Below the pieces are notes generated by a model that worked only from the letters and a program-made list of their open reading frames with translations, searched no databases and was not told the origin of the DNA. Source: an uncultured Gammaproteobacteria bacterium (GTDB taxonomy: Bacteria > Patescibacteriota > Microgenomatia > Woykebacterales > RBG-16-39-9b). Taken from it: a stretch of 64,000 nt of DNA. This document shows positions 775 through 63,878 of the stretch, piece by piece (position 1 is the stretch's first letter; the number at the start of each line of letters is the position of its first letter). Position numbers and translations under genes: made by a program. The stretch is from assembly GCA_964349395.1 (NCBI GenBank), contig CAYGGA010000001.1, positions 65,991-129,990 on the forward strand, read 5' to 3'.

Positions 775-954
775 ATGAGCCGAGAGGAGTGGTTAGACCA
801 CTTGTTCTTCTGGTTTGGAGCTGCTGGCTTTCTTGTCCTATTTGTTGGCTTAGTGGTAGCCTGGGCAGCCAGTGATGTCCGGTATCTAGTGGGCGTCAGT
901 TTTCCGGGTGGGGTAGCTTGGTACCTAGCAATCCAAAGGTTACTTTATTCTTAG
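775..954 (+). CDS. small 2-TM membrane protein (59 aa), below the track's 60-aa cutoff
   Basis: ATG at 775 preceded by AAGGAGAG. Hydrophobic product MSREEWLDHLFFWFGAAGFLVLFVGLVVAW. Paralogous to the next small ORF (both start MSR.E.W). Confidence 0.4.
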   Translation: MSREEWLDHLFFWFGAAGFLVLFVGLVVAWAASDVRYLVGVSFPGGVAWYLAIQRLLYS

Positions 955-968
955 TAAAGGAGGGTCAG

Positions 969-4319: not shown

Positions 4320-6946
<2,627 letters not shown>

Positions 6947-12350: not shown

Positions 12351-13760
12351 ATGGCCGAAAAATTGCTAGAAAAAATAGAAGCTTTTCGTTATAAACTTCT
12401 GCGTCGTGCTGCTCCTATCGTCGAAATTCCAACTGTTGTAGTGGAGTCAGCTCTTGAGGAAACAGGAAAACTAAAAGATACATTTGATTCCCAAAAACCA
12501 GTAAAAAAAGCCAAACACTTCTGGAAATTGCTGGGTCCAGGCCTGACCACGGGCGCAGCGGATGATGATCCTTCCGGAGTGGCGACCTATTCCCAAACCG
12601 GCGCGCGCTACGGCTTTCAGCTTTTGTGGCTGGCACTTTTTACTTTCCCGCTGATGGCGGTAGTTCAGGAAATGTGCGCCCGGATCGGACTGGTGACTGG
12701 CCGAGGATTGGCTGCCAATATTCGTCTGCATTTCCCACGTTGGGTCCTGTACCTATGTGCTTTCCTACTGCTGGTGGCCAATAGCTTAAATATTGGGGCT
12801 GACTTGGGAGCGATGGCCAAAGCAACCCAACTAATTTTCCCGCAGCTGAATTTTACAATCGTAATCCTTGGTTTTACGCTTCTGAGTTTGATACTCCAGA
12901 TTTTCGTCTCTTATGAGAGATTCGCGCGTTTTCTCAAGCTAATAGCTTTGATTTTACTAGCTTACGTTTTGACTGCTTTTACCGTCCAACTTGATTGGGT
13001 AGAAGTGATACGCCACACTACAATTCCAAGTATTACCTTCTCCAGTGAACAGATTTTTCTGATTGTGGCAATTTTGGGAACTACGATCTCGCCCTATCTT
13101 TTCTTTTGGCAGACTTCTCAGGAGGTGGAAGAAGAGATATTGGAGGGAAAAACTACCTTAGAAGAAAGACAAAAAACTACTGATAGTCAGATAAAAAATA
13201 TGCGCATTGATGTGTGGAGTGGGATGTTTGTTTCCAATGCAGTAATGTTTTTTATCATCATGGTTTGTGCTGCCACTCTCTATGTAAATGGTGTCACAGA
13301 TATTGAAAGTGCCGAGCAGGCCGCCGCCGCGCTAAAACCGTTAGCAGGGGAAGGTGCTTACTTTTTGTTTGCTTTAGGAATTATTGGCACTGGTCTTTTG
13401 GCAGTTCCCGTACTCGCTGGGTCAGCGGCTTACGCGATCTCGGAAAGCTTTCATTGGAAGGAGGGTTTGTATCGCAAACTGAAAGACGCTTACGCTTTTT
13501 ATGGGGTGATCATTGTCTCCATGGCCATTGGGTTAGGGCTAAATTTCATTGGACTTGATCCGATTGATGCGTTGATTTACTCAGCGGTTTTGAATGGTCT
13601 GGTTTCCCCGGTGATCTTGGTTCTCATACTGCTTCTCAGTCAGAATAAGAAGATCATGGGTGATCGCAAGAACAATCTTTTGACCACTATCCTGGGTTGG
13701 TTCATTACTATTGTCATGATTGTGGCCGGTGGAGCGACAGTTTTTTCCCTAATTTTTTAA
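12351..13760 (+). CDS. mntH: NRAMP-family divalent metal (Mn2+/Fe2+) transporter
   Basis: 469 aa. GPGLTTGAADDDPSGVATYSQTGARYGFQLLW NRAMP signature. About 11 TM segments. About 50-aa N-terminal extension. Confidence 0.85.
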   Translation: MAEKLLEKIEAFRYKLLRRAAPIVEIPTVVVESALEETGKLKDTFDSQKPVKKAKHFWKLLGPGLTTGAADDDPSGVATYSQTGARYGFQLLWLALFTFPLMAVVQEMCARIGLVTGRGLAANIRLHFPRWVLYLCAFLLLVANSLNIGADLGAMAKATQLIFPQLNFTIVILGFTLLSLILQIFVSYERFARFLKLIALILLAYVLTAFTVQLDWVEVIRHTTIPSITFSSEQIFLIVAILGTTISPYLFFWQTSQEVEEEILEGKTTLEERQKTTDSQIKNMRIDVWSGMFVSNAVMFFIIMVCAATLYVNGVTDIESAEQAAAALKPLAGEGAYFLFALGIIGTGLLAVPVLAGSAAYAISESFHWKEGLYRKLKDAYAFYGVIIVSMAIGLGLNFIGLDPIDALIYSAVLNGLVSPVILVLILLLSQNKKIMGDRKNNLLTTILGWFITIVMIVAGGATVFSLIF

Positions 13761-14392
13761 GAGTATTTTCGTATCACACCCACTACCTTACCCTGAATTC
13801 TCACATCTTTAGAGATAATCGGATTCATGCTGGAATTGGCAGGCTCTAGTCGGACGTGATCTGGCTCTTTGTAATATCTTTTAAGAGTCGCAAAATTGTC
13901 ATTTAGGATTGCCACCACAATCTCACCGTTGGAGGCGGTTTGGTTTTCTTCCACGACTACATAGTCTCCATCTTGAATATGCGCCTCAATCATCGAATCA
14001 CCACGAACTTGCAGTACAAAGGTGCGTTTGCGACCCATCATATCGGCGGGGATAGAGATGGTAGTTGTGGTGTCCTCAATAGCCTCAATCGGGTGACCAG
14101 CAGCGATGTAACCCACGAGTGGGACCTCGACCGTGCCGACCCAGCCGGCAATCTTTTGGTCTACTACCTCAATGCCACGTCGGATGCCTTCGATTTTACG
14201 GATAACACCTTTGTCCACCAGATTTTGGACATGTTCATGTACAGTAGCGGGGGAGCGGAGCCCTAAAGCATCACACATTTCTGGGAGGGTAGGGGCGTAG
14301 CCATATTTCTGCATGTAAGAAGAGATGAACTCCATGAGTTCTCGTTGGCGGCGATAGAGGACGGGGGGCATAGTCTTCCTTTCTTCCCCCAT
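13757..14392 (-). CDS. lexA: LexA repressor (S24 peptidase)
   Basis: 211 aa. N-terminal winged HTH. C-terminal VRGDSMIEAHIQDGDYVVV Ser-Lys dyad domain. Divergent from uvrB. Confidence 0.9.
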   Translation of the reverse strand: MGEERKTMPPVLYRRQRELMEFISSYMQKYGYAPTLPEMCDALGLRSPATVHEHVQNLVDKGVIRKIEGIRRGIEVVDQKIAGWVGTVEVPLVGYIAAGHPIEAIEDTTTTISIPADMMGRKRTFVLQVRGDSMIEAHIQDGDYVVVEENQTASNGEIVVAILNDNFATLKRYYKEPDHVRLEPANSSMNPIISKDVRIQGKVVGVIRKYS

Positions 14393-14474
14393 AGCCTTGG
14401 CGAAGGGGGACAGTTGTGAAAATTGTCTCCTGCCTTAAAGGGAGACAAGATTCGGTTAATATTAGTTCTATCTT

Positions 14475-14489
14475 CGGACAATTGTTCGG
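14475..14489. promoter_or_regulatory. Cheo-type SOS box CGGACAATTGTTCGG (GAAC-N4-GTTC-like) in the lexA/uvrB divergent intergenic region
   Basis: One mismatch to the CGAACATATGTTCG consensus. Lies about 85 bp from both divergent start codons. Confidence 0.6.
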
Positions 14490-14576
14490 GGTTGTCAACT
14501 GGGTATAAATAGGTCATATTGGGTCAAATTTCGGTTAATTGTTTCCTAAGGGTAAAAGATAGGGTAAGATTGACTT

Positions 14577-16565
14577 ATGGATTTTAGACTAAAGAGTGTT
14601 TTTAAACCGACTGGGGACCAACCTCAAGCAATTGAAAAACTCACTGAGGGTGTAAAAAGAGGTGACCAATACCAAACTTTGCTAGGAGCCACTGGAACTG
14701 GTAAGACTTTTACTGTCGCCAATGTAATCCAGAATACGCAGAAGCCAACTTTGGTGATGGCCCACAATAAAACATTGGCTGCTCAACTAGCCTCCGAATT
14801 TAGGGAATTTTTCCCAGAAAATGCCGTGGAATATTTTGTTTCTTACTATGACTACTACCAACCTGAAGCTTACGTTGCGAGCAGAGATTTATTTATCGAG
14901 AAAGACTCGACTGTAAATGAAGAGATCGATCGTCTGAGGCTGGCGGCCACCAATGCCTTAGTTAGCCGCAAGGACGTGATCATCGTCGCTTCAGTCTCCT
15001 GCATCTACAATATTGGTTCTCCGGAAGCTTACGTACAAAGTACTTTAAAAGTGGAGGTGGGTCAGACTTATGCACGTGATGAGATCTTTTCAAAACTTAC
15101 TAGTTTGCAGTATGACCGCAATGACACTGATTTAGGCCGCGGTAATTTTAGAGTTAAAGGAGAGATCATCGAGATCCACCCTGCTTATGGACAGTTTGTC
15201 TACCGCCTCGAGTTTTTTGGAGACGAGCTACAAAAAATCACCAGTCGGGAGATTACCACCCAAAATAAATTAGAGGATTTTACGGATATCACTATTTATC
15301 CTGCCCGGCATTATATGATGCCGAGAGAGTCAATGATGGGGCCTTTAAAAGACATACAGGCAGAGCTCAATAGCCGAGTCAAAGATTTCAAAAAGAGCGG
15401 AAAAATAGTGGAAGCCCAAAGGCTGGAGCAGAGGACCAATTATGATCTAGAAATGATTGAACAGCTAGGTTACTGTTCAGGAATTGAAAACTACTCCCGG
15501 TATTTTGATGGTCGAGCACCTGGTCAGGCTCCTTTTACTTTGCTTGATTATTTCCCTAAAGATTATTTACTGGTGGTGGATGAGTCCCATATGAGTTTAC
15601 CTCAGATTAGGGGTATGTGGCATGGTGAGAGAGCTCGGAAAGATGTTTTGATTGATCATGGGTTTAGACTACCGAGCGCGATTGATAATCGCCCGCTTAC
15701 TTATGAAGAATTCCAAAGACGGACTGGTCAGACTATTTACACCTCTGCTACTCCCAATCCATACGAGCTAGGGTTATCTTCTCAGGTAGTAGAGCAAGTC
15801 ATCCGGCCGACGGGGATTGTCGATCCTACCATCGATTTACGTCCGACTGAGGGGCAGATACCTGATTTGATTCAGGAGCTAAATACACGAATTAAAAAAG
15901 GGCAGCGAGTACTTATTACCACCTTGACCAAAAGAATGTCAGAGGAACTGACTACTTATTTGCAAGAGAGAAATATCAAAGTAATGTATCTACACTCTGA
16001 CGTGGAAACTTTGGAGCGGGTGGAGATCCTCAGAGACCTGAGACTGGGTGTTTATGACGTCATTGTTGGAATTAATTTACTTCGGGAAGGGTTGGACCTG
16101 CCAGAAGTATCACTCGTAGCCATTTTGGATGCAGACAAAGAAGGATTCTTGAGAAGTAGGACGAGTTTGATTCAAACTATTGGACGGGCGGCTCGTCACC
16201 TGGAAGGGAGAGTAATTTTATACGCTGACAAAGTAACTGACTCTATGAAATATGCGATGGATGAGACCAATCGTCGCCGCGCAATTCAAGAACAATACAA
16301 CAAAGAACATGGCATCACCCCCACCAAAATTGAGAAAGCAGTCAAAGATATTTCCGAAAGATTACAAGAGCTGCAACCAGACGCTACTACTGCAGAAGAA
16401 CTAGATCTTACCAAAGTCCCACCTGATCAAGTCAAGAGACTGATTAAAGATCTAGAAAGAGAAATGGATTTTGCGGCCAAAAATATGGAATTTGAGAGAG
16501 CCGCCCTAATCCGCGATCAAATCAATGAGCTCAAAAGAGAAGAAATTACTTTGCCGAGCTCGTAG
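14577..16565 (+). CDS. uvrB: excinuclease ABC subunit B
   Basis: 662 aa. Walker A GATGTGKT. Helicase motifs. C-terminal UVR domain [14 protein letters not shown]. Confidence 0.95.
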
Positions 16566-35129: not shown

Positions 35130-35441
35130 ATGAGTTTGGATCACACCCTCGGTATCGTCAGGCGGTATGAACCTGCGTCCGAGGAGCATCGGTACGCAGT
35201 CATCAGCCGCAACCTCTCTGCCGAGACATACGAGGAGAGCGACCATGTCGTCTTTTCCTCGGGTGATCTGGAGGAGGTAGTCGTTCGTTTCATCCAGGAA
35301 GAATCCTGCCACATGTTCGAAGGTCTGTGGTCGGAAGGCTTCCCTGGAACTGAGACAGCGACGCTCCGTGAACTGCACGTCCTTCGCCTTCGCGAGCTTG
35401 CGGTGTACCACGGATTGGATCCTGAACTGGTCACCTCCTAA
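35130..35441 (+). CDS. hypothetical acidic protein, GC-rich
   Basis: 103 aa. Strong RBS GGAGGAAGG. GC by eye about 58%. Confidence 0.5.
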   Translation: MSLDHTLGIVRRYEPASEEHRYAVISRNLSAETYEESDHVVFSSGDLEEVVVRFIQEESCHMFEGLWSEGFPGTETATLRELHVLRLRELAVYHGLDPELVTS

Positions 35442-35545: not shown

Positions 35546-35621
35546 GCGCCCATAGCTCAGTGGATAGAGCAGGACGGTTCTAACGTCAAGGTCGGGGGTT
35601 CGAATCCCTCTGGGCGTACCA
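35546..35621 (+). tRNA. tRNA-Arg(TCT)
   Basis: 76 nt. Acceptor GCGCCCA/TGGGCGT. Anticodon loop GTTCTAA. T-loop GGTTCGAATCC. CCA encoded. Confidence 0.85.
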
Positions 35622-35876: not shown

Positions 35877-36368
35877 TTGTTCAAGAAAGTTATCATCTTG
35901 GGCGCGGTTGCGCTGGTTGCCATGCTCGGCATCGTCGCGACAGTCTCGGCCGCCGGCGGGTTTGACGAGTTCGGCTACAACGACACGGCCCGCATCTTCG
36001 TGGGACCCGCAGACGGCGTCGACGGCGTCATGGACGGAATGGTCTGGGGCGACGCTACCTACGCAAACGACCACCTCGTCATGAAGTGGAACGCGGCCTG
36101 GGATGCCTGCAACGATCTGAACACTCCGGAGGCCTGCGCTGGTGCCTGGATTGACAACGAATGGAACGGAAAAGTTCCCGACGGTAGCGGCGAGACCTGG
36201 CATTACAAGATCGTCTGGATCGGAGCCTGCGGAGCTTACGGAACCCCGACTGGTGACGGTGGCTACTGCATCTGGAATAGCTACGAGATGCTGATGTCCC
36301 AAGGAACTGCGGAGAACGTGCACATCTGGGACGCACACGCTATCCCGAACGGCTACGGCGGTCGATAG
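35877..36368 (+). CDS. secreted Trp/Cys/Gly-rich protein of unknown function, very GC-rich
   Basis: 163 aa. TTG start. Signal peptide MFKKVIILGAVALVAMLGIVATVSAAGG. GC by eye about 60%. An overlapping antisense ORF 35847..36338 is judged spurious. Confidence 0.5.
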   Translation: MFKKVIILGAVALVAMLGIVATVSAAGGFDEFGYNDTARIFVGPADGVDGVMDGMVWGDATYANDHLVMKWNAAWDACNDLNTPEACAGAWIDNEWNGKVPDGSGETWHYKIVWIGACGAYGTPTGDGGYCIWNSYEMLMSQGTAENVHIWDAHAIPNGYGGR

Positions 36369-36465
36369 CGCTTTTCCGGTGCAGGTCTTCTTCAGATAGC
36401 ACCGAGCCCTCTCAGGAAAAACAGTTACATAACCTAACTGGCGCTGTCTGTAATTCCGGAGAGTA

Positions 36466-36545
36466 GATCAACTGTGCTGTGTATTATTAAGTCCTCTTTG
36501 ACCCTAACCGGTACATTGAGAACCTAATATACACAGCACTTTTTT
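36466..36545 (+). terminator. long hairpin (11-bp stem GTGCTGTGTAT/ATACACAGCAC) followed by a T-run
   Basis: Perfect inverted repeat with a 44-nt loop, followed by TTTTTT. Confidence 0.35.
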
Positions 36546-36959
36546 AATATATTTTTCAATAATTTCTCCATCCAAACTACCTTGGGAAACTACTATTTGT
36601 CTTTGCATTAGGAAGTTAAACATCTGCTTTTCCCTTCCTAAAACGGTGTTTTGCTTGGAGCTTTCCTGTATAATAGGTGGTATCGAGCGCTTGGAGTTTC
36701 TTGTAGGTTAGGAGTAAACTATCGAAAATGGTGTTCCACCCAGAGACATCCAGGCGTACCAGTTTAAGCTTAGAACTTTAGTTCTAGGTTTAAACTGGGT
36801 CCAGAGTGTGGTGAACCCCCTCGGGTTCGAGTTGGCGAAGCAAACCAAGAGCTTTAGCTCCGGCATCCCTCTGGGCAACCATCCCACAGTAAAACCCATA
36901 GCCTTGACATCAAACTTTAATTATGATATCCTTCATCTACAAAAATTTGGAGAATTGAG

Positions 36960-61425: not shown

Positions 61426-62562
61426 ATGGCTGACAATAAGTCGGAAGCAATTAAAAAACACAGGCAGCTCAATGGCAAGATTGAGGTCAGAAGCAAGGGT
61501 AAAATCTCTACCTTAAAAGATTTAAGTATCTACTACACTCCAGGTGTAGGAGCAGTGTCCAAATATATTGCTGATAATCCCCAGGAATTCAGAAATTTAA
61601 CAATTAAAAAAAATACAGTGGCCGTGGTCACTGATGGGTCTGCAGTCCTTGGTCTTGGAAATATTGGACCCTATGCTGCTTTGCCCGTGATGGAAGGGAA
61701 GGCACAATTGTTCAAGGAACTGGCCAATATTGACGCCTTTCCCATTTGTTTAGACACCCAAGACACCGAAGAAATTATCAGAACTGTCAAAAATATTGCT
61801 CCAGTTTTTGGAGGTATAAATCTAGAGGATATCGCTGCTCCTAGGTGTTTTGAAATCGAAGAAAGATTGAAGGCTGAACTAGATATACCAGTTATGCATG
61901 ATGATCAGCATGGCACCGCCGTAGCAGTTTTAGCCGGAATAATTAACTCCCTGAGTATTGTTCAAAAGTCTTATACAACTATTAGAGTAGTAATCCTTGG
62001 TGCCGGAGCAGCCGGCGTGGCTATCTCTAAGCTTTTGCTTCTCTACGGTATCAGAAACATTGTGGTTGTCGACTCCAAAGGAATAGTGTCTAAATCGAGG
62101 TTCGACCTCAACAATTCGAAGAAAGAGTTGGCTAAGATCACTAATCCTGACAATTTGGGTGGAGATCTCAGGAAAGCCATGATTGGGGCGGATGTTTTTA
62201 TTGGGGTGGCCGGACCAAATCTAGTTACCAAGGAAGACATAAGGTCCATGAACTCTGGGCCCATTGTTTTTAGCATGGCCAATCCAGTGCCTGAGATTTT
62301 ACCTAGTGTAGCTAAAAAAGGGGGCGCACTGATAGTGGCTACTGGTAGAAGTGACTTTCCTAATCAATTAAATAACGCTTTATGTTTTCCCGGCATTTTT
62401 CGAGGCGCTTTGGATCACCAAGTTAGCCAAATCACCGACGAGATGAAGATCCTAGCCGCAGAAAACCTCGCCTCTTTAGTGAAAAAACCCACCCCTAACC
62501 AAATCATTCCCAATGTTTTTGATCCAAAAGTGGTCCCCGCAGTTGCTCGCGCGATCGCTTGA
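61426..62562 (+). CDS. NAD(P)-dependent malic enzyme, short form
   Basis: 378 aa. IYYTPGVGAV. DDQHGTA. GAGAAGVAI Rossmann motif. Confidence 0.9.
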   Translation: MADNKSEAIKKHRQLNGKIEVRSKGKISTLKDLSIYYTPGVGAVSKYIADNPQEFRNLTIKKNTVAVVTDGSAVLGLGNIGPYAALPVMEGKAQLFKELANIDAFPICLDTQDTEEIIRTVKNIAPVFGGINLEDIAAPRCFEIEERLKAELDIPVMHDDQHGTAVAVLAGIINSLSIVQKSYTTIRVVILGAGAAGVAISKLLLLYGIRNIVVVDSKGIVSKSRFDLNNSKKELAKITNPDNLGGDLRKAMIGADVFIGVAGPNLVTKEDIRSMNSGPIVFSMANPVPEILPSVAKKGGALIVATGRSDFPNQLNNALCFPGIFRGALDHQVSQITDEMKILAAENLASLVKKPTPNQIIPNVFDPKVVPAVARAIA

Positions 62563-63052
62563 CAAATACTTGTAAAAAATATATATTTGATCTCCTAAAA
62601 GATGAGAGAGGCACCTGCGGGGGACAAATTGCTTCCAAAATTTGGTAGCAGCTTGTCCTGCGCAGGACCCTCAGACACACGGTCACCTGTCAACCAAGCA
62701 ATTGGAGATAGGTAAGAGCAAAGTGAGAGAATAGCCCAAAACTCTCTGAGCCGCTTCGAAAGGATGCATACCTTCAAGTGGCAATACCTGGCGGACCTGG
62801 CCCGGATTAAACCGAGTCAGCAGGAAGAAGCGCGTGTACTGGGGTATAAAAAAGGCTGGGGAAAAGATGACATAGTAATGGTGTCAAAAAGAGACTCACG
62901 TCTCCTCGGTAAGCAACTGACCGCTGCACTGGTTGGAAGCAAGCCCGCCGTAAACCCCTCCTAAGTAGAGAGAGATCACCGGGTCCGTGCTGACGATGCT
63001 TTTACTACGTGTGTATGTGTGAGGCAAGCGTCAGATCCCGTTATCTAGCAGT

Positions 63053-63064
63053 GAACATTTGTTC
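63053..63064. promoter_or_regulatory. LexA-box-like palindrome GAACATTTGTTC (perfect GAAC-N4-GTTC) in an ORF-poor region
   Basis: tGAACATTTGTTCat is a perfect Cheo-type core. No annotated CDS adjacent. Confidence 0.35.
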
Positions 63065-63539
63065 ATCCGAACAGATCTTCCTGCTTTCCGCCGCTGAAAG
63101 CTGCAGTCTTTCCTCGGCAATTTCAGAAGGCCGGTGCTGAGTTTTGTGTCCGCTCCACGAACTCACACCGGCCTTACCTCTTTAATATGAGCTAATGAGA
63201 AGCAAATTGGTTTCAAAATTTGAAATTAGTTTGCTCTTCACTGAGCCCTGCAGTCTATCGTCACGATAAAAGGCACCTCCCAAGCTTTCCATCGCGATTT
63301 GGTAGCTGCAGGTAAAAAGAGATCCAGAGTCCCCGTGACAGCTTCTGCTAGACTCTGCTCTAGTGGTGATGAGATCCCTCACTAGGGTCCGGAGACACCA
63401 CTTGCCCGACTGTAATCACGGATAGCAGTAGGGCATAAATATAGGGTCGGTATGTGTACAGACGACTTGTTTGAGTTCTGTTCACCTCTACCGGCCCTCT
63501 TCTTTTTATAAATAGATTTCCTTTCATGACCAAAAAACT

Positions 63540-63568
63540 AGCCCCGGGTGGGGGCTAGTTTTACTTAG
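63540..63568. terminator. bidirectional intrinsic terminator (CTAGCCCCGGGTGGGGGCTAG flanked by A-run and T-run)
   Basis: aaaaaaCTAGCCCCgggtgGGGGCTAGtttt. Confidence 0.6.
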
Positions 63569-63741
63569 TCGTTAAAATCTACACTCTCTTTTTCAAGAGG
63601 TTCTTTTAATCTATCAATCACCGTGATATCAATATCATGAGCCGTGACTTGATCAGGAGAGGCTCGTTCACTTGTGGGGCTCAGTTCTCGAAACTTTTCT
63701 GAGTCCACCGAGACTGGGTGACGTGCTTTTTCTTCGATCAC
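63565..63741 (-). CDS. small acidic hypothetical protein (58 aa, below track cutoff)
   Basis: GTG start with strong SD GGAGGTG 6 nt upstream. Ends at the bidirectional terminator. Confidence 0.4.
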   Translation of the reverse strand: MIEEKARHPVSVDSEKFRELSPTSERASPDQVTAHDIDITVIDRLKEPLEKESVDFND

Positions 63742-63878
63742 TATTCACCTCCTCTTGCAGCAGGACCTTAATCTAAATCTTGGCACCCAATACTGTCAAC
63801 AAAGAAGCATCTAATAGGTTCGGGTTTATGCACTAATTGAAGCTTAAAAAAGATAAGTTCAACCAGTCGGCTATCTGG

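What the first reader, a model, noticed from the sequence alone, without database searches (positions are those of the whole stretch)
62563..63540. ~1-kb ORF-poor, GC-enriched, hairpin-rich region carrying a perfect LexA-box-like palindrome
Between the malic enzyme gene and a bidirectional terminator lies about 980 bp with no ORF over 66 aa on either strand. GC is visibly elevated, and there are many inverted repeats, for example GTCCTGCGCAGGAC at 62655 and GGCCGGTG...CACCGGCC at about 63130-63176. It also contains tGAACATTTGTTCat at 63053-63064, a perfect Cheo-type SOS box like the one between lexA and uvrB. Candidate explanations are a degraded foreign gene, an SOS-controlled small toxin/antitoxin or ncRNA, or a large structured RNA. 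I checked for RNase P, tmRNA and SRP hallmarks and found none.
Basis: seen in the sequence. Interest (0 to 1): 0.55.

Follow-up and report, generated by a model that had tools for sequence, protein, structure and literature searches.

The report
Unclassified large pseudoknotted RNA gene, CPR bacterium
The gene-free kilobase after the malic enzyme gene is most likely a separately transcribed, highly folded non-coding RNA built from pseudoknotted modules; it matches no catalogued RNA family, and its "LexA box" is just part of one RNA hairpin.

Summary
Window 62563-63540 has no ORF over 66 aa, slightly raised GC (0.478 vs 0.432), many inverted repeats, and GAACATTTGTTC at 63053-63064.

The + strand folds far better than shuffles (z -8.9; malic CDS control -0.42). 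It starts with an 11/12 sigma-70 promoter (62559-62587) and ends at a terminator hairpin (63534-63562).

Three relatives whose malic enzyme is 80-86% identical (L083, L084, L193) carry a gene-free, structured stretch at the same place, each with the same kind of promoter. The sequences are almost unalignable, but they share a ~150-nt module:
- P1 (GAUCA-C-AGGGU / ACCCU-UGGUC) encloses a variable hairpin P2.
- Two more hairpins, P3 and P4, follow.
- The internal loop (CCGUG) pairs with the P4 loop (CACGG) as a pseudoknot that covaries.

A covariance model built only from the relatives finds the window's copy (62970-63122) and nothing else in the window.

Rfam 15, Pfam on six frames, tblastn between loci, and phage and plasmid searches give nothing.

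The palindrome lies inside hairpin P3, about 465 nt downstream of the -10 box, and is absent from the relatives. The SOS and pseudogene readings are therefore not supported; "large structured RNA" is. Function is unknown and only four lineages carry it.

The parts
62559..62587 (+). Sigma-70-type promoter TTGACA-17 nt-TATATT (11/12); the -35 box overlaps the malic enzyme stop codon
   Evidence: Equivalent 11/12 promoters with a perfect TTGACA and a 17-nt spacer sit at the 5' edge of the homologous gaps: L083 3923-3951, L084 7143-7171, L193 1566-1594.
62595..63565 (+). Predicted non-coding transcript of about 0.97 kb. The ends are inferred from the promoter and terminator, not mapped.
   Evidence: Fold z -8.87. 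The + strand MFE is lower than the - strand MFE in all four loci. No ORF over 66 aa. No Rfam hit.
62592..62609 (+). Unit-1 leader CTCCTAAAAGATGAGAGA, repeated at the start of unit 2
   Evidence: Direct repeat D3; coordinates.
62608..62672 (+). Long 5' hairpin (GAGGCACCUGCG...CGCAGGACCCUC). Part of it is duplicated at 63203-63249.
   Evidence: MFE and centroid structures; repeat D1, 47 nt, 70%.
62679..62683 (+). CACGG in a mostly unpaired stretch; a candidate partner for a CCGUG loop (inference only)
   Evidence: Sequence, coordinates, MFE.
62970..63122 (+). Module W2, the conserved pseudoknot-type domain. P1 is 62974-62984 paired with 63036-63045. J1 (CCGUG) is 62985-62989. P2 hairpin is 62990-63034. 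P3 hairpin is 63047-63085. P4 hairpin is 63090-63118.
   Evidence: Hand segmentation verified against the sequence. Model R1, built without any window sequence, finds it: E 0.021 with filters off in 92 kb, and 23.8 bits, E 0.0028 and 0.00011, on the identical contig L001. Pair counts.
63047..63085 (+). Hairpin P3 of module W2 (AGCAG...CUGCU). It contains the LexA-box-like palindrome GAACATTTGTTC (63053-63064).
   Evidence: Folds alone at -16.6 kcal/mol, z -5.67. AUUUGUUC pairs with the downstream GAACAGAU, so the palindrome does not pair with itself. The equivalent position in relatives holds unrelated hairpins closed by CGGUU/AACCG.
63127..63175 (+). GC-rich hairpin AAGGCCGGUG...CACCGGCCUU
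   Evidence: Inverted repeat I11; MFE.
63196..63240 (+). AT-rich hairpin, paralogous to part of the unit-1 hairpin
   Evidence: Inverted repeat I1 and direct repeat D1.
63312..63433 (+). Variant module W3. Leader GUAAAAAGAGAUC. P1b is 63325-63331 paired with 63351-63357. J1 (CCCGUGAC) is 63332-63339. P2 is 63340-63349. P3 is 63360-63385. P4 is 63405-63433, with loop UAAUCACGGAUAG (CACGG at 63417-63421).
   Evidence: Read from the sequence and located; repeat D7. Its J1 CCGUGA is complementary to its loop UCACGG. Model R1 gives only a noise-level hit here (63369-63438, E 3.5), so this part is tentative.
63444..63497 (+). 3' domain closed by GGGUCGGUA/UACCGGCCC, with conserved UGUGU and ACCUCU. 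It is shared with the closest relative L083 (GGCCGGUAUGUGU...ACCUCUGCCGGCCC).
   Evidence: Sequences; coordinates. The differences are U.G vs C-G and U-A vs U.G, which keep pairing only on the + strand (direct reading).
63534..63562 (.). 12-bp perfect hairpin with an A-run before and a U-run after: a bidirectional intrinsic terminator that ends the RNA and the convergent 58-aa ORF (63565-63741, -)
   Evidence: Inverted repeat I5. The consensus scan did not score it because the U-run is part of the stem. Hairpins followed by U-runs close the L084 and L193 loci, and a hairpin followed by AAUUUUUU closes L083.

Best explanation
The region is a gene for non-coding RNA. A sigma-70 promoter that overlaps the malic enzyme stop codon drives a + strand transcript of about 0.95 kb, which ends at the 63534-63562 hairpin.

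The transcript is built from two or three diverged tandem units. Its conserved functional core is a ~150-nt module:
- P1 is a 10-bp helix with a bulged C that encloses hairpin P2.
- The 5-nt internal loop between P1 and P2 (CCGUG) pairs with the loop of a downstream hairpin P4 (AUCACGG) to form a pseudoknot.
- A variable hairpin P3 sits between P1 and P4.

Selection acts on the fold rather than the sequence, so the hairpins differ completely between relatives while the pairing is kept.

Shown: absence of coding signal, excess structure, conserved promoters, strand preference, homologous modules, compensatory changes and a covarying pseudoknot.

Inferred: the region is transcribed as described. 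The RNA acts in trans, because in the window and in L084 there is no same-strand gene after the terminator. The pseudoknotted core is the site that binds a partner (protein, ligand or another RNA module) or catalyses processing.

Within the ncRNA reading, my preferred mechanism is a trans-acting scaffold or decoy RNA whose repeated pseudoknot modules bind a partner. I give that roughly 0.35 of the total. A multi-sRNA locus and a self-processing ribozyme array are the other readings within it.

The GAAC-N4-GTTC palindrome is a by-product of hairpin P3 and is not a LexA operator.
For: Structure:
- Fold z is -8.87 for the + strand, against -0.42 for the neighbouring CDS.
- The homologous gaps give z -3.70 (L084) and -4.14 (L193).
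- The + strand MFE beats the - strand in all four loci, by 10.7 to 35.7 kcal/mol.

Transcription signals:
- An 11/12 promoter with a perfect -35 box and a 17-nt spacer sits at the 5' edge of all four loci.
- Terminator hairpins with U-runs close all four.

Conserved module:
- It is present in L083, L084 (twice) and L193, and in the window.
- Model R1, built from the four non-window copies, finds window 62970-63057 as the best window hit (E 0.021; the next hit is 2.3).
- R1 finds the full module at 23.8 bits on the identical contig L001. It finds nothing in 884 kb of more distant malic enzyme loci.

Pair counts:
- On the model alignment of five real sequences, 92.8% of cells are paired and 9 pairs have changes on both sides. 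0/500 shuffles reach the observed value on any of the five measures. Slid controls give 27-45% paired.
- The pseudoknot pair 16-79 reads C-G, C-G, A-U, G-U in the four relatives.
- RNAalifold predicts P1-P4 again on that alignment.

No coding signal.

No known RNA family.
Against: - No expression data exist; the transcript ends are inferred.
- Only four lineages carry the locus (five to seven module copies). The core alignment was first made by hand with the structure in mind, and the model alignment leans towards that structure, so the covariation statistics are supportive, not decisive.
- The window's module W2 lacks the CACGG partner in its own P4 loop. Its pseudoknot would need a partner elsewhere in the transcript (62679-62683 or 63417-63421).
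- Units 1 and 3 of the window have only weak or partial homologs.
- L083 contains internal terminator-like hairpins and a second promoter. The locus may therefore encode several RNAs rather than one large one.
- Relatives with 72-78% identical malic enzyme lack the locus at this position, so it is not essential there.
- The function is unknown.
Confidence: 0.8

Rival explanations
1. SOS-regulated element: LexA binds GAACATTTGTTC and controls a small toxin/antitoxin or ncRNA encoded here.
For: - The 12-mer is a perfect GAAC-N4-GTTC.
- The genome encodes LexA.
- The lexA-uvrB intergenic region has a similar site, GAACAATTGTCC on the - strand.
- Perfect sites are over-represented in the window, 4 against 0.78 expected.
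Against: - The site is about 465 nt downstream of the only promoter-like site on the + strand, and no promoter-like site lies near it on either strand.
- It sits inside RNA hairpin P3, where GUUC pairs with a downstream GAAC.
- None of the three homologous loci has the motif, even allowing one mismatch in an equivalent position.
- The other three perfect copies lie in CDSs or in another hairpin, not at SOS genes.
- No conserved small ORF exists.
Confidence: 0.03
2. Degraded foreign gene: a pseudogene that has accumulated stops and frameshifts.
For: GC is slightly above the genome background. Closely related genomes lack the segment at this locus.
Against: - Each frame has 11-21 stops, and no frame hits any Pfam family at E <= 0.1.
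- tblastn of all stop-to-stop pieces between the four loci finds only the short nucleotide-conserved block, in several frames and on both strands.
- A pseudogene would not keep an 11/12 promoter, a terminator, compensatory base pairs and a fold z-score of -8.9.
Confidence: 0.03
3. Cis-acting leader or attenuator: a long structured 5' UTR that controls the gene downstream (the 64-aa DUF2795-like gene in L083 and L193).
For: In L083 and L193 a small same-strand gene follows the locus within about 80-90 nt. Terminator hairpins could act as expression platforms.
Against: - In the window and in L084 the next gene is on the opposite strand.
- Relatives express the same small gene directly after the malic enzyme gene without the RNA (L086, L266).
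- In L193 a separate promoter-like site precedes that gene.
Confidence: 0.06
4. DNA-level element: a cluster of hairpin-forming repeats (MITE- or REP-like, or recombination sites) rather than an RNA.
For: Both strands fold well (z -8.9 and -8.1). The locus is present or absent between close relatives.
Against: - No other copy occurs in the remaining 63 kb of the window or in any other fetched locus.
- There are no terminal inverted repeats of note.
- 9 of 115 helix cells in the hand alignment are G-U pairs, and these would be A-C mismatches on the other strand.
- The + strand is more stable in all four loci.
- A pseudoknot covaries.
- Promoter and terminator orientation is conserved.
Confidence: 0.05

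Closest known systems
Orphan large structured bacterial ncRNAs (OLE, GOLLD, ROOL, raiA motif RNA)
   Same: - Hundreds of nucleotides long, ORF-free and with many helices.
- Has its own transcription signals.
- Structure is conserved through compensatory changes.
- Function is not evident from the gene neighbourhood.
   Different: - No covariance-model similarity to any of them (Rfam 15).
- Found only in four closely related uncultured lineages instead of across orders or phyla.
- Built from diverged tandem modules.
- Sequence diverges very fast: neighbours are 80-86% identical in protein, yet the RNA is nearly unalignable.
HDV-like self-cleaving ribozymes (nested pseudoknot fold)
   Same: The order of pairing elements is the same: P1 5' strand, pseudoknot 5' strand, hairpin, P1 3' strand, hairpin, pseudoknot 3' strand preceded by (G)AAU. 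The first P1 pair is often G-U. This comparison rests on my own knowledge of the HDV fold, not on a tool result.
   Different: - P1 is 5+5 bp with a bulge, not a continuous 6-7 bp helix.
- The enclosed hairpin is long and variable, not a 3-bp P3 with a conserved L3, so no P1.1 can form.
- No conserved C lies in the position of the catalytic J4/2 cytosine.
- The pseudoknot 3' strand sits inside a hairpin loop.
- The Rfam HDV-type models give no hit at E <= 10.
Multi-hairpin decoy RNAs (CsrB/RsmZ type)
   Same: One transcript presents the same short motif (AUCACG) repeatedly in hairpin loops: window 63415-63420, L083 4192, L084 7413 and 7697, L193 2002.
   Different: The loop motif pairs with an internal loop of the same module and covaries with it. 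That points to RNA-RNA tertiary structure rather than protein titration. No candidate binding protein is known.
Cheo-box (GAAC-N4-GTTC) LexA operators of Gram-positive-type SOS regulons
   Same: The 12-mer at 63053-63064 fits the core consensus perfectly.
   Different: - It does not overlap a promoter.
- It is not conserved in homologous loci.
- It is embedded in an RNA helix.
- It lacks the flanking C...G of the site in the lexA-uvrB spacer.

Membership tests
Any Rfam 15 family (including ROOL, GOLLD, OLE, HEARO, raiA, RNase P, tmRNA, SRP, 6S, group I/II introns, known ribozymes and riboswitches) | Covariance-model score at or near the family's gathering threshold | tested here: not met
   Gathering scan of the whole window returned only 7 tRNAs. 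An E <= 10 scan of 62300-63800 returned two chance-level hits, SNORA16 at 15 bits and U1 at 12.9 bits. An E <= 5 scan of L083, L084 and L193 found nothing in the homologous gaps.
LexA (SOS) regulon operator | Sequence matches GAAC-N4-GTTC | tested here: met
   GAACATTTGTTC at 63053-63064.
LexA (SOS) regulon operator | Overlaps or closely adjoins a promoter so that binding blocks transcription | tested here: not met
   The only + strand promoter-like site is at 62559-62587, about 465 nt upstream. No promoter-like site lies near the box on either strand.
LexA (SOS) regulon operator | Conserved at the orthologous position in related genomes | tested here: not met
   No GAAC-N4-GTTC in the L083, L084 or L193 gaps. 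The only one-mismatch site (L084 7602) is the P1 3' strand of a module.
LexA (SOS) regulon operator | Bound by LexA; transcript induced by DNA damage | not testable with these tools
   Needs EMSA or footprinting and expression data.
HDV-like ribozyme | Nested double pseudoknot with continuous P1, 3-bp P3 plus L3 forming P1.1, and catalytic C in J4/2 | tested here: not met
   The order of helices is similar. However, the hairpin enclosed by P1 is 12-45 nt and variable. No conserved C precedes the pseudoknot 3' strand. No Rfam HDV-type hit.
HDV-like ribozyme | Self-cleavage at the 5' end of P1 | not testable with these tools
   Needs an in vitro transcription and cleavage assay.
Protein-coding gene or pseudogene | ORF or frame-consistent similarity to a protein family; protein-level conservation between relatives | tested here: not met
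   Longest ORF is 66 aa. No Pfam hit for the ORFs or for six whole-frame translations. No tblastn similarity between loci beyond the 20-nt conserved RNA block.
Structured ncRNA (generic criteria) | Fold stability beyond composition, own transcription signals, homologs with compensatory changes | tested here: met
   z -8.87. Promoters. 92.8% of cells paired, 9 pairs with double changes, 0/500 shuffles. The model built without window sequences recovers the window copy.
Type III toxin-antitoxin antitoxin RNA (ToxI-like) | Short near-identical tandem repeats immediately upstream of an endoribonuclease toxin gene | tested here: not met
   The units are hundreds of nucleotides long and highly diverged. 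No same-strand ORF follows in the window.

The most novel reading that the evidence does not exclude
The locus encodes a previously undescribed class of large modular RNA confined to a small clade of probable Patescibacteria (CPR) bacteria. Its pseudoknotted modules share the helix order of HDV-like ribozymes. They might be self-processing ribozymes that cut the tandem transcript into unit RNAs. Alternatively, they might pair with each other (CCGUG with CACGG between modules) to build a higher-order RNA assembly, as recently seen for ROOL, GOLLD and OLE.
Probability: 0.12. Interest if true: 0.85.

Novelty: new member of a known kind. Interest (0 to 1): 0.6.

Why it matters
Large structured bacterial RNAs of unknown function are rare. 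Each one found so far (OLE, GOLLD, ROOL, raiA) has opened new structural or mechanistic questions.

This candidate comes from an uncultured, probably Patescibacteria lineage with a reduced genome, where keeping about 1 kb of non-coding but strongly folded DNA with its own promoter implies a real function.

Three features make it a compact test case for how an RNA fold is kept while sequence turns over:
- the modular tandem design;
- the covarying loop-to-internal-loop pseudoknot;
- the very fast sequence turnover.

It also gives a concrete target for in vitro cleavage, probing or cryo-EM work.

The result is also a caution: a perfect transcription-factor consensus inside a hairpin-rich RNA gene can be a by-product of helix formation.

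Tried and rejected
- nhmmer of the region against 80 malic enzyme loci from GTDB genomes (best 63% protein identity) and against the closer loci: no similarity beyond the identical contigs.
- Whole-locus blastn between the four gaps: only 20-90-nt blocks.
- Viral scan with ATCACNGGGNNCGTGCTG: 104 hits, all chance, because none has the downstream half of the motif.
- Metagenome scan with ATCACMGGGNNCGTGCWG-N{6,36}-CWGANCYC: 71 hits, all in high-GC coding sequence (an I-T-G-x-V-L peptide), none a module.
- MAFFT on raw module sequences misaligned the variable hairpins. N-padded input was partly re-gapped. The model seed was therefore four relatives with the variable hairpin interiors and a few linker bases trimmed and one N placeholder added. 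It was then re-aligned to real sequences.
- My own dinucleotide-shuffle script timed out; the fold tool's z-scores were used instead.
- A search through the downstream DUF2795-like protein found relatives but no further RNA loci.
- Hammerhead-like CUGANGA in P2 of two copies is not conserved, so it was rejected.
- RNase P P4-like strings (CAGAACCC) are not conserved and there is no covariance-model support, so this was rejected.
- An alternative pairing of the P4 loop (AUCACGGGU) with the P1 3' strand works in L083 and L193 but not in L084, so it was not adopted.
- Literature searches for structured RNAs in Patescibacteria found nothing relevant.
Full report
**1. What is in the sequence**

The malic enzyme gene (61426-62562, +; Pfam malic and Malic_M) is followed by about 1 kb in which the longest ORF on either strand is 66 aa. 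GC is 0.478 for 62563-63540 against 0.432 for the window, which places it in the top 8% of windows of that size. The rise is real but modest.

GAACATTTGTTC is at 63053-63064.

Folded as RNA, the 976-nt + strand reaches -375.2 kcal/mol against -300.0 +/- 8.5 for dinucleotide-preserving shuffles (z -8.87). The - strand gives z -8.09. An equal length of the malic enzyme CDS gives z -0.42. The excess of structure is therefore large and specific to the region.

**2. Transcription signals**

TTGACA-17 nt-TATATT (11 of 12) lies at 62559-62587 on the + strand, overlapping the malic stop codon. It is the only promoter-like site on that strand between 62300 and 64000.

The region ends with a perfect 12-bp hairpin flanked by an A-run and a U-run (63534-63562). 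This hairpin also serves the convergent 58-aa ORF at 63565-63741.

**3. Not a known RNA and not a gene remnant**

- Rfam 15 at gathering thresholds finds only seven tRNAs in the window.
- At E <= 10 the region gives two chance-level hits to eukaryotic families.
- The ORFs and all six whole-frame translations (11-21 stops each) match no Pfam family.
- blastn in distant mode finds nothing in the phage or plasmid collections.

**4. Relatives**

The organism is probably a member of the Patescibacteria (CPR). The best malic enzyme matches among GTDB species genomes are mostly Patescibacteria MAGs, at 63% identity or less. None of those 80 loci resembles the region.

Closer malic enzymes exist in metagenome assemblies.

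| Locus | Malic enzyme identity | Stretch after the gene |
|---|---|---|
| L083 | 86% | gene-free, 1349 bp |
| L193 | 81% | gene-free, 670 bp |
| L084 | 80% | gene-free, 670 bp |
| L191, L192, L085, L086 | 72-78% | no such stretch |

The same contig as the window occurs in two ENA assemblies (L001, L002) with identical sequence.

Shared properties of the three gaps:
- Each begins with an 11/12 promoter with a perfect TTGACA and a 17-nt spacer.
- Each ends with a hairpin followed by a U-run.
- L084 and L193 fold better than shuffles, z -3.70 and -4.14. L083 is too long for the shuffle test.
- In all four loci the + strand is more stable than the - strand, by 10.7 to 35.7 kcal/mol.

The neighbouring proteins are similar, yet the gaps are nearly unalignable. 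nhmmer finds nothing and sensitive blastn finds only 20-90-nt blocks.

**5. The conserved module**

The blocks belong to a module of about 150 nt that I segmented by hand and checked against the sequences.

Its order is:
1. leader;
2. P1a (GAUCA);
3. bulged C;
4. P1b (AGGGU);
5. J1 (CCGUG);
6. hairpin P2 (CUG...CAG, with an interior of 4 to 33 nt);
7. a single A;
8. P1b' (ACCCU);
9. P1a' (UGGUC);
10. hairpin P3 (CGGUU...AACCG, with an interior of 29 to 60 unrelated nt);
11. hairpin P4 (GCCG...CGGC) with a loop containing AUCACG.

Copies:

| Copy | Coordinates |
|---|---|
| W2 | window 62970-63122 |
| L083a | L083 4050-4213 |
| L193b | L193 1884-2023 |
| L084a | L084 7291-7433 |
| L084b | L084 7571-7718 |

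Weaker variants are L083 4589-4670 (model R1, E 0.056), L193 about 1615-1800, and window 63312-63433.

In the hand alignment 109 of 115 helix cells are standard pairs. There are two-sided changes in P1b (A-U to C-G in the window copy), P2 and P3. Nine cells are G-U, which would be mismatches on the other strand. Most of the variable P2 and P3 hairpins fold better than shuffles on their own.

**6. Pseudoknot**

J1 is complementary to the P4 loop, and the two covary:

| Copy | J1 | P4 loop |
|---|---|---|
| L083a | CCGUG | CACGG |
| L193b | CCGUG | CACGG |
| L084a | ACGUG | CACGU |
| L084b | GCGUG | CACGU (G-U) |
| W3 (window variant) | CCGUGA (63333-63338) | UCACGG (63416-63421) |

On the four-sequence seed alignment the full structure with the pseudoknot has 96.4% of cells paired (1 of 500 shuffles reaches this). 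The pseudoknot helix is 100% paired, and its first pair reads C-G, C-G, A-U, G-U.

The window's W2 copy lacks CACGG in its own P4 loop. The window has two CACGG elements, at 62679-62683 and 63417-63421. Which of them pairs with J1 of W2, if either, is unknown.

**7. Independent recovery**

Covariance model R1 was built only from the four non-window copies. Their variable hairpin interiors and a few linker bases were trimmed and one N placeholder was added.

- With filters off it finds window 62970-63057 at E 0.021 in 92 kb. This is the best window hit, and the next is E 2.3.
- With default settings it aligns the whole module on the identical contig L001 at 23.8 bits (E 0.0028 in 884 kb; E 0.00011 in 35 kb).
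- It finds no copy elsewhere in the window, in the 80 distant loci, or in eight further loci reached through the downstream gene.

On the model alignment of the five real sequences (A7):
- 92.8% of cells are paired;
- 9 pairs have changes on both sides;
- 0 of 500 shuffles reach the observed value on any of the five measures;
- sliding the 3' partners by 1-3 columns drops pairing to 27-45%.

RNAalifold predicts P1, P2, P3 and P4 again on that alignment. These alignments were fitted to the structure and hold few sequences, so I treat the statistics as supportive rather than decisive.

**8. Architecture of the window locus**

Three unit starts share a purine-rich leader:
- 62592: CTCCTAAAAGATGAGAGA;
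- 62958: CTCCTAAGTAGAGAGAGATC;
- 63312: GTAAAAAGAGATC.

These are repeats D3 and D7, with coordinates. Part of the unit-1 hairpin (62625-62671) is duplicated at 63203-63249.

The 3' domain (63444-63497: GGGUCGGUAUGUGU...CACCUCUACCGGCCC) is shared with the closest relative L083 (GGCCGGUAUGUGU...ACCUCUGCCGGCCC). The differences keep pairing through G-U.

L083 contains a second 11/12 promoter (4546-4574) and internal terminator-like hairpins. The locus may therefore give several RNAs in some lineages. The window has only one promoter-like site.

**9. The LexA-box-like palindrome**

LexA (13757-14392, -) and UvrB (14577-16565, +) are present. Their spacer holds GGACAATTGTTC, one mismatch from the consensus.

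Four observations count against the site at 63053-63064 being an operator:
- It lies inside hairpin P3 of module W2. That hairpin folds at -16.6 kcal/mol (z -5.67), with AUUUGUUC pairing to the downstream GAACAGAU.
- It is about 465 nt downstream of the -10 box.
- It is absent from L083, L084 and L193.
- The other perfect copies in the window are inside a small membrane-protein ORF (981), inside a hairpin in another gene-free region (36773), and inside a trehalose-phosphate synthase/phosphatase CDS (43054).

I conclude that the palindrome is a by-product of helix formation.

**10. Mechanism**

Shown:
- an ORF-free segment flanked by a promoter and a terminator;
- strong, strand-biased structure;
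- a module conserved by compensatory change, including a pseudoknot.

Inferred:
- it is transcribed;
- it acts in trans, because in the window and L084 no same-strand gene follows, and relatives express the downstream small gene without it;
- the pseudoknotted core is the functional site.

The helix order (P1 5' strand, pseudoknot strand, hairpin, P1 3' strand, hairpin, pseudoknot strand preceded by AAU) recalls HDV-like ribozymes. That comparison is from my own knowledge. The defining P3/L3/P1.1 elements and the catalytic C are not present, and the Rfam HDV-type models are silent. Membership is therefore rejected, while a catalytic or self-processing role stays possible.

Repeated AUCACG loops also recall decoy RNAs. 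Their covariation with J1, however, points to RNA-RNA contacts.

I put about 0.8 on "structured ncRNA gene". Within that, roughly 0.35 goes to a trans-acting scaffold or partner-binding RNA. The remainder is divided between a multi-sRNA locus and self-processing or assembling modules (about 0.12).

**11. Novelty and limits**

No catalogued family matches. Scans of the viral and metagenome collections with motif patterns returned only chance hits, so the known distribution is four uncultured lineages.

This is a candidate new class within the known category of orphan structured bacterial RNAs. It is not a new kind of system. Expression, exact ends, the pseudoknot partner of W2 and the function all remain to be tested.

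Noticed in passing
window 36340-36930: A second gene-free stretch is strongly structured (z -6.20 on +, -6.19 on -). It includes an 18-bp near-perfect hairpin at about 36759-36798 that carries another GAAC-N4-GTTC (GAACTTTAGTTC). A terminator-like hairpin with a U-run lies at about 36473-36545. There is no Rfam hit and no match to model R1. It may be another unclassified ncRNA.
   Followed up: partly
window 35130-35441 and 35877-36368, flanking tRNA-Arg 35546-35621: This is the highest-GC part of the window (0.50-0.52). It has two ORFs that overlap opposite-strand ORFs, and the 163-aa ORFs tested have no Pfam hit. The 163-aa + strand ORF starts with a signal-peptide-like hydrophobic segment. 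It looks like a small acquired island next to a tRNA gene.
   Followed up: partly
window 14474-14489: CGGACAATTGTTCG lies in the lexA-uvrB divergent spacer. It is one mismatch from the Cheo-type consensus and is the likeliest real LexA operator in the window. Two further GGTTAAT-containing repeats lie nearby (14454-14470, 14532-14548).
   Followed up: partly
window 776-955 and 970-1150: Two tandem small ORFs encode similar hydrophobic peptides (paralogous small membrane proteins). The list of ORFs of 90 aa or more shows only an opposite-strand ORF here. One of them contains the GAACATTGGTTC site.
   Followed up: no
L083 3962-4050 and 4250-4580: In the closest relative, module a is directly preceded by a branched hairpin closed by AAGGCGCA/UGCGCCUU plus U6, which is terminator-like. 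The middle of the locus holds two more terminator-like hairpins and a second 11/12 promoter. The homologous locus therefore appears to be split into several transcription units.
   Followed up: partly
window 62974-62980, 62614-62621, 63481-63488: Short strings (GAUCACC, ACCUGCGG, UCACCUCU) resemble the 3' terminal region of bacterial 16S rRNA (…ACCUGCGGUUGGAUCACCUCCUUA, recalled from memory). GAUCAC is conserved in most module copies. This may be coincidence. The organism's 16S rRNA is not in the window, so it could not be checked.
   Followed up: no
window 63565-63741 (-): A 58-aa acidic ORF converges on the shared terminator. It has no Pfam hit, but gene callers called it in the ENA contig (L001 12140-12316).
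   Followed up: no
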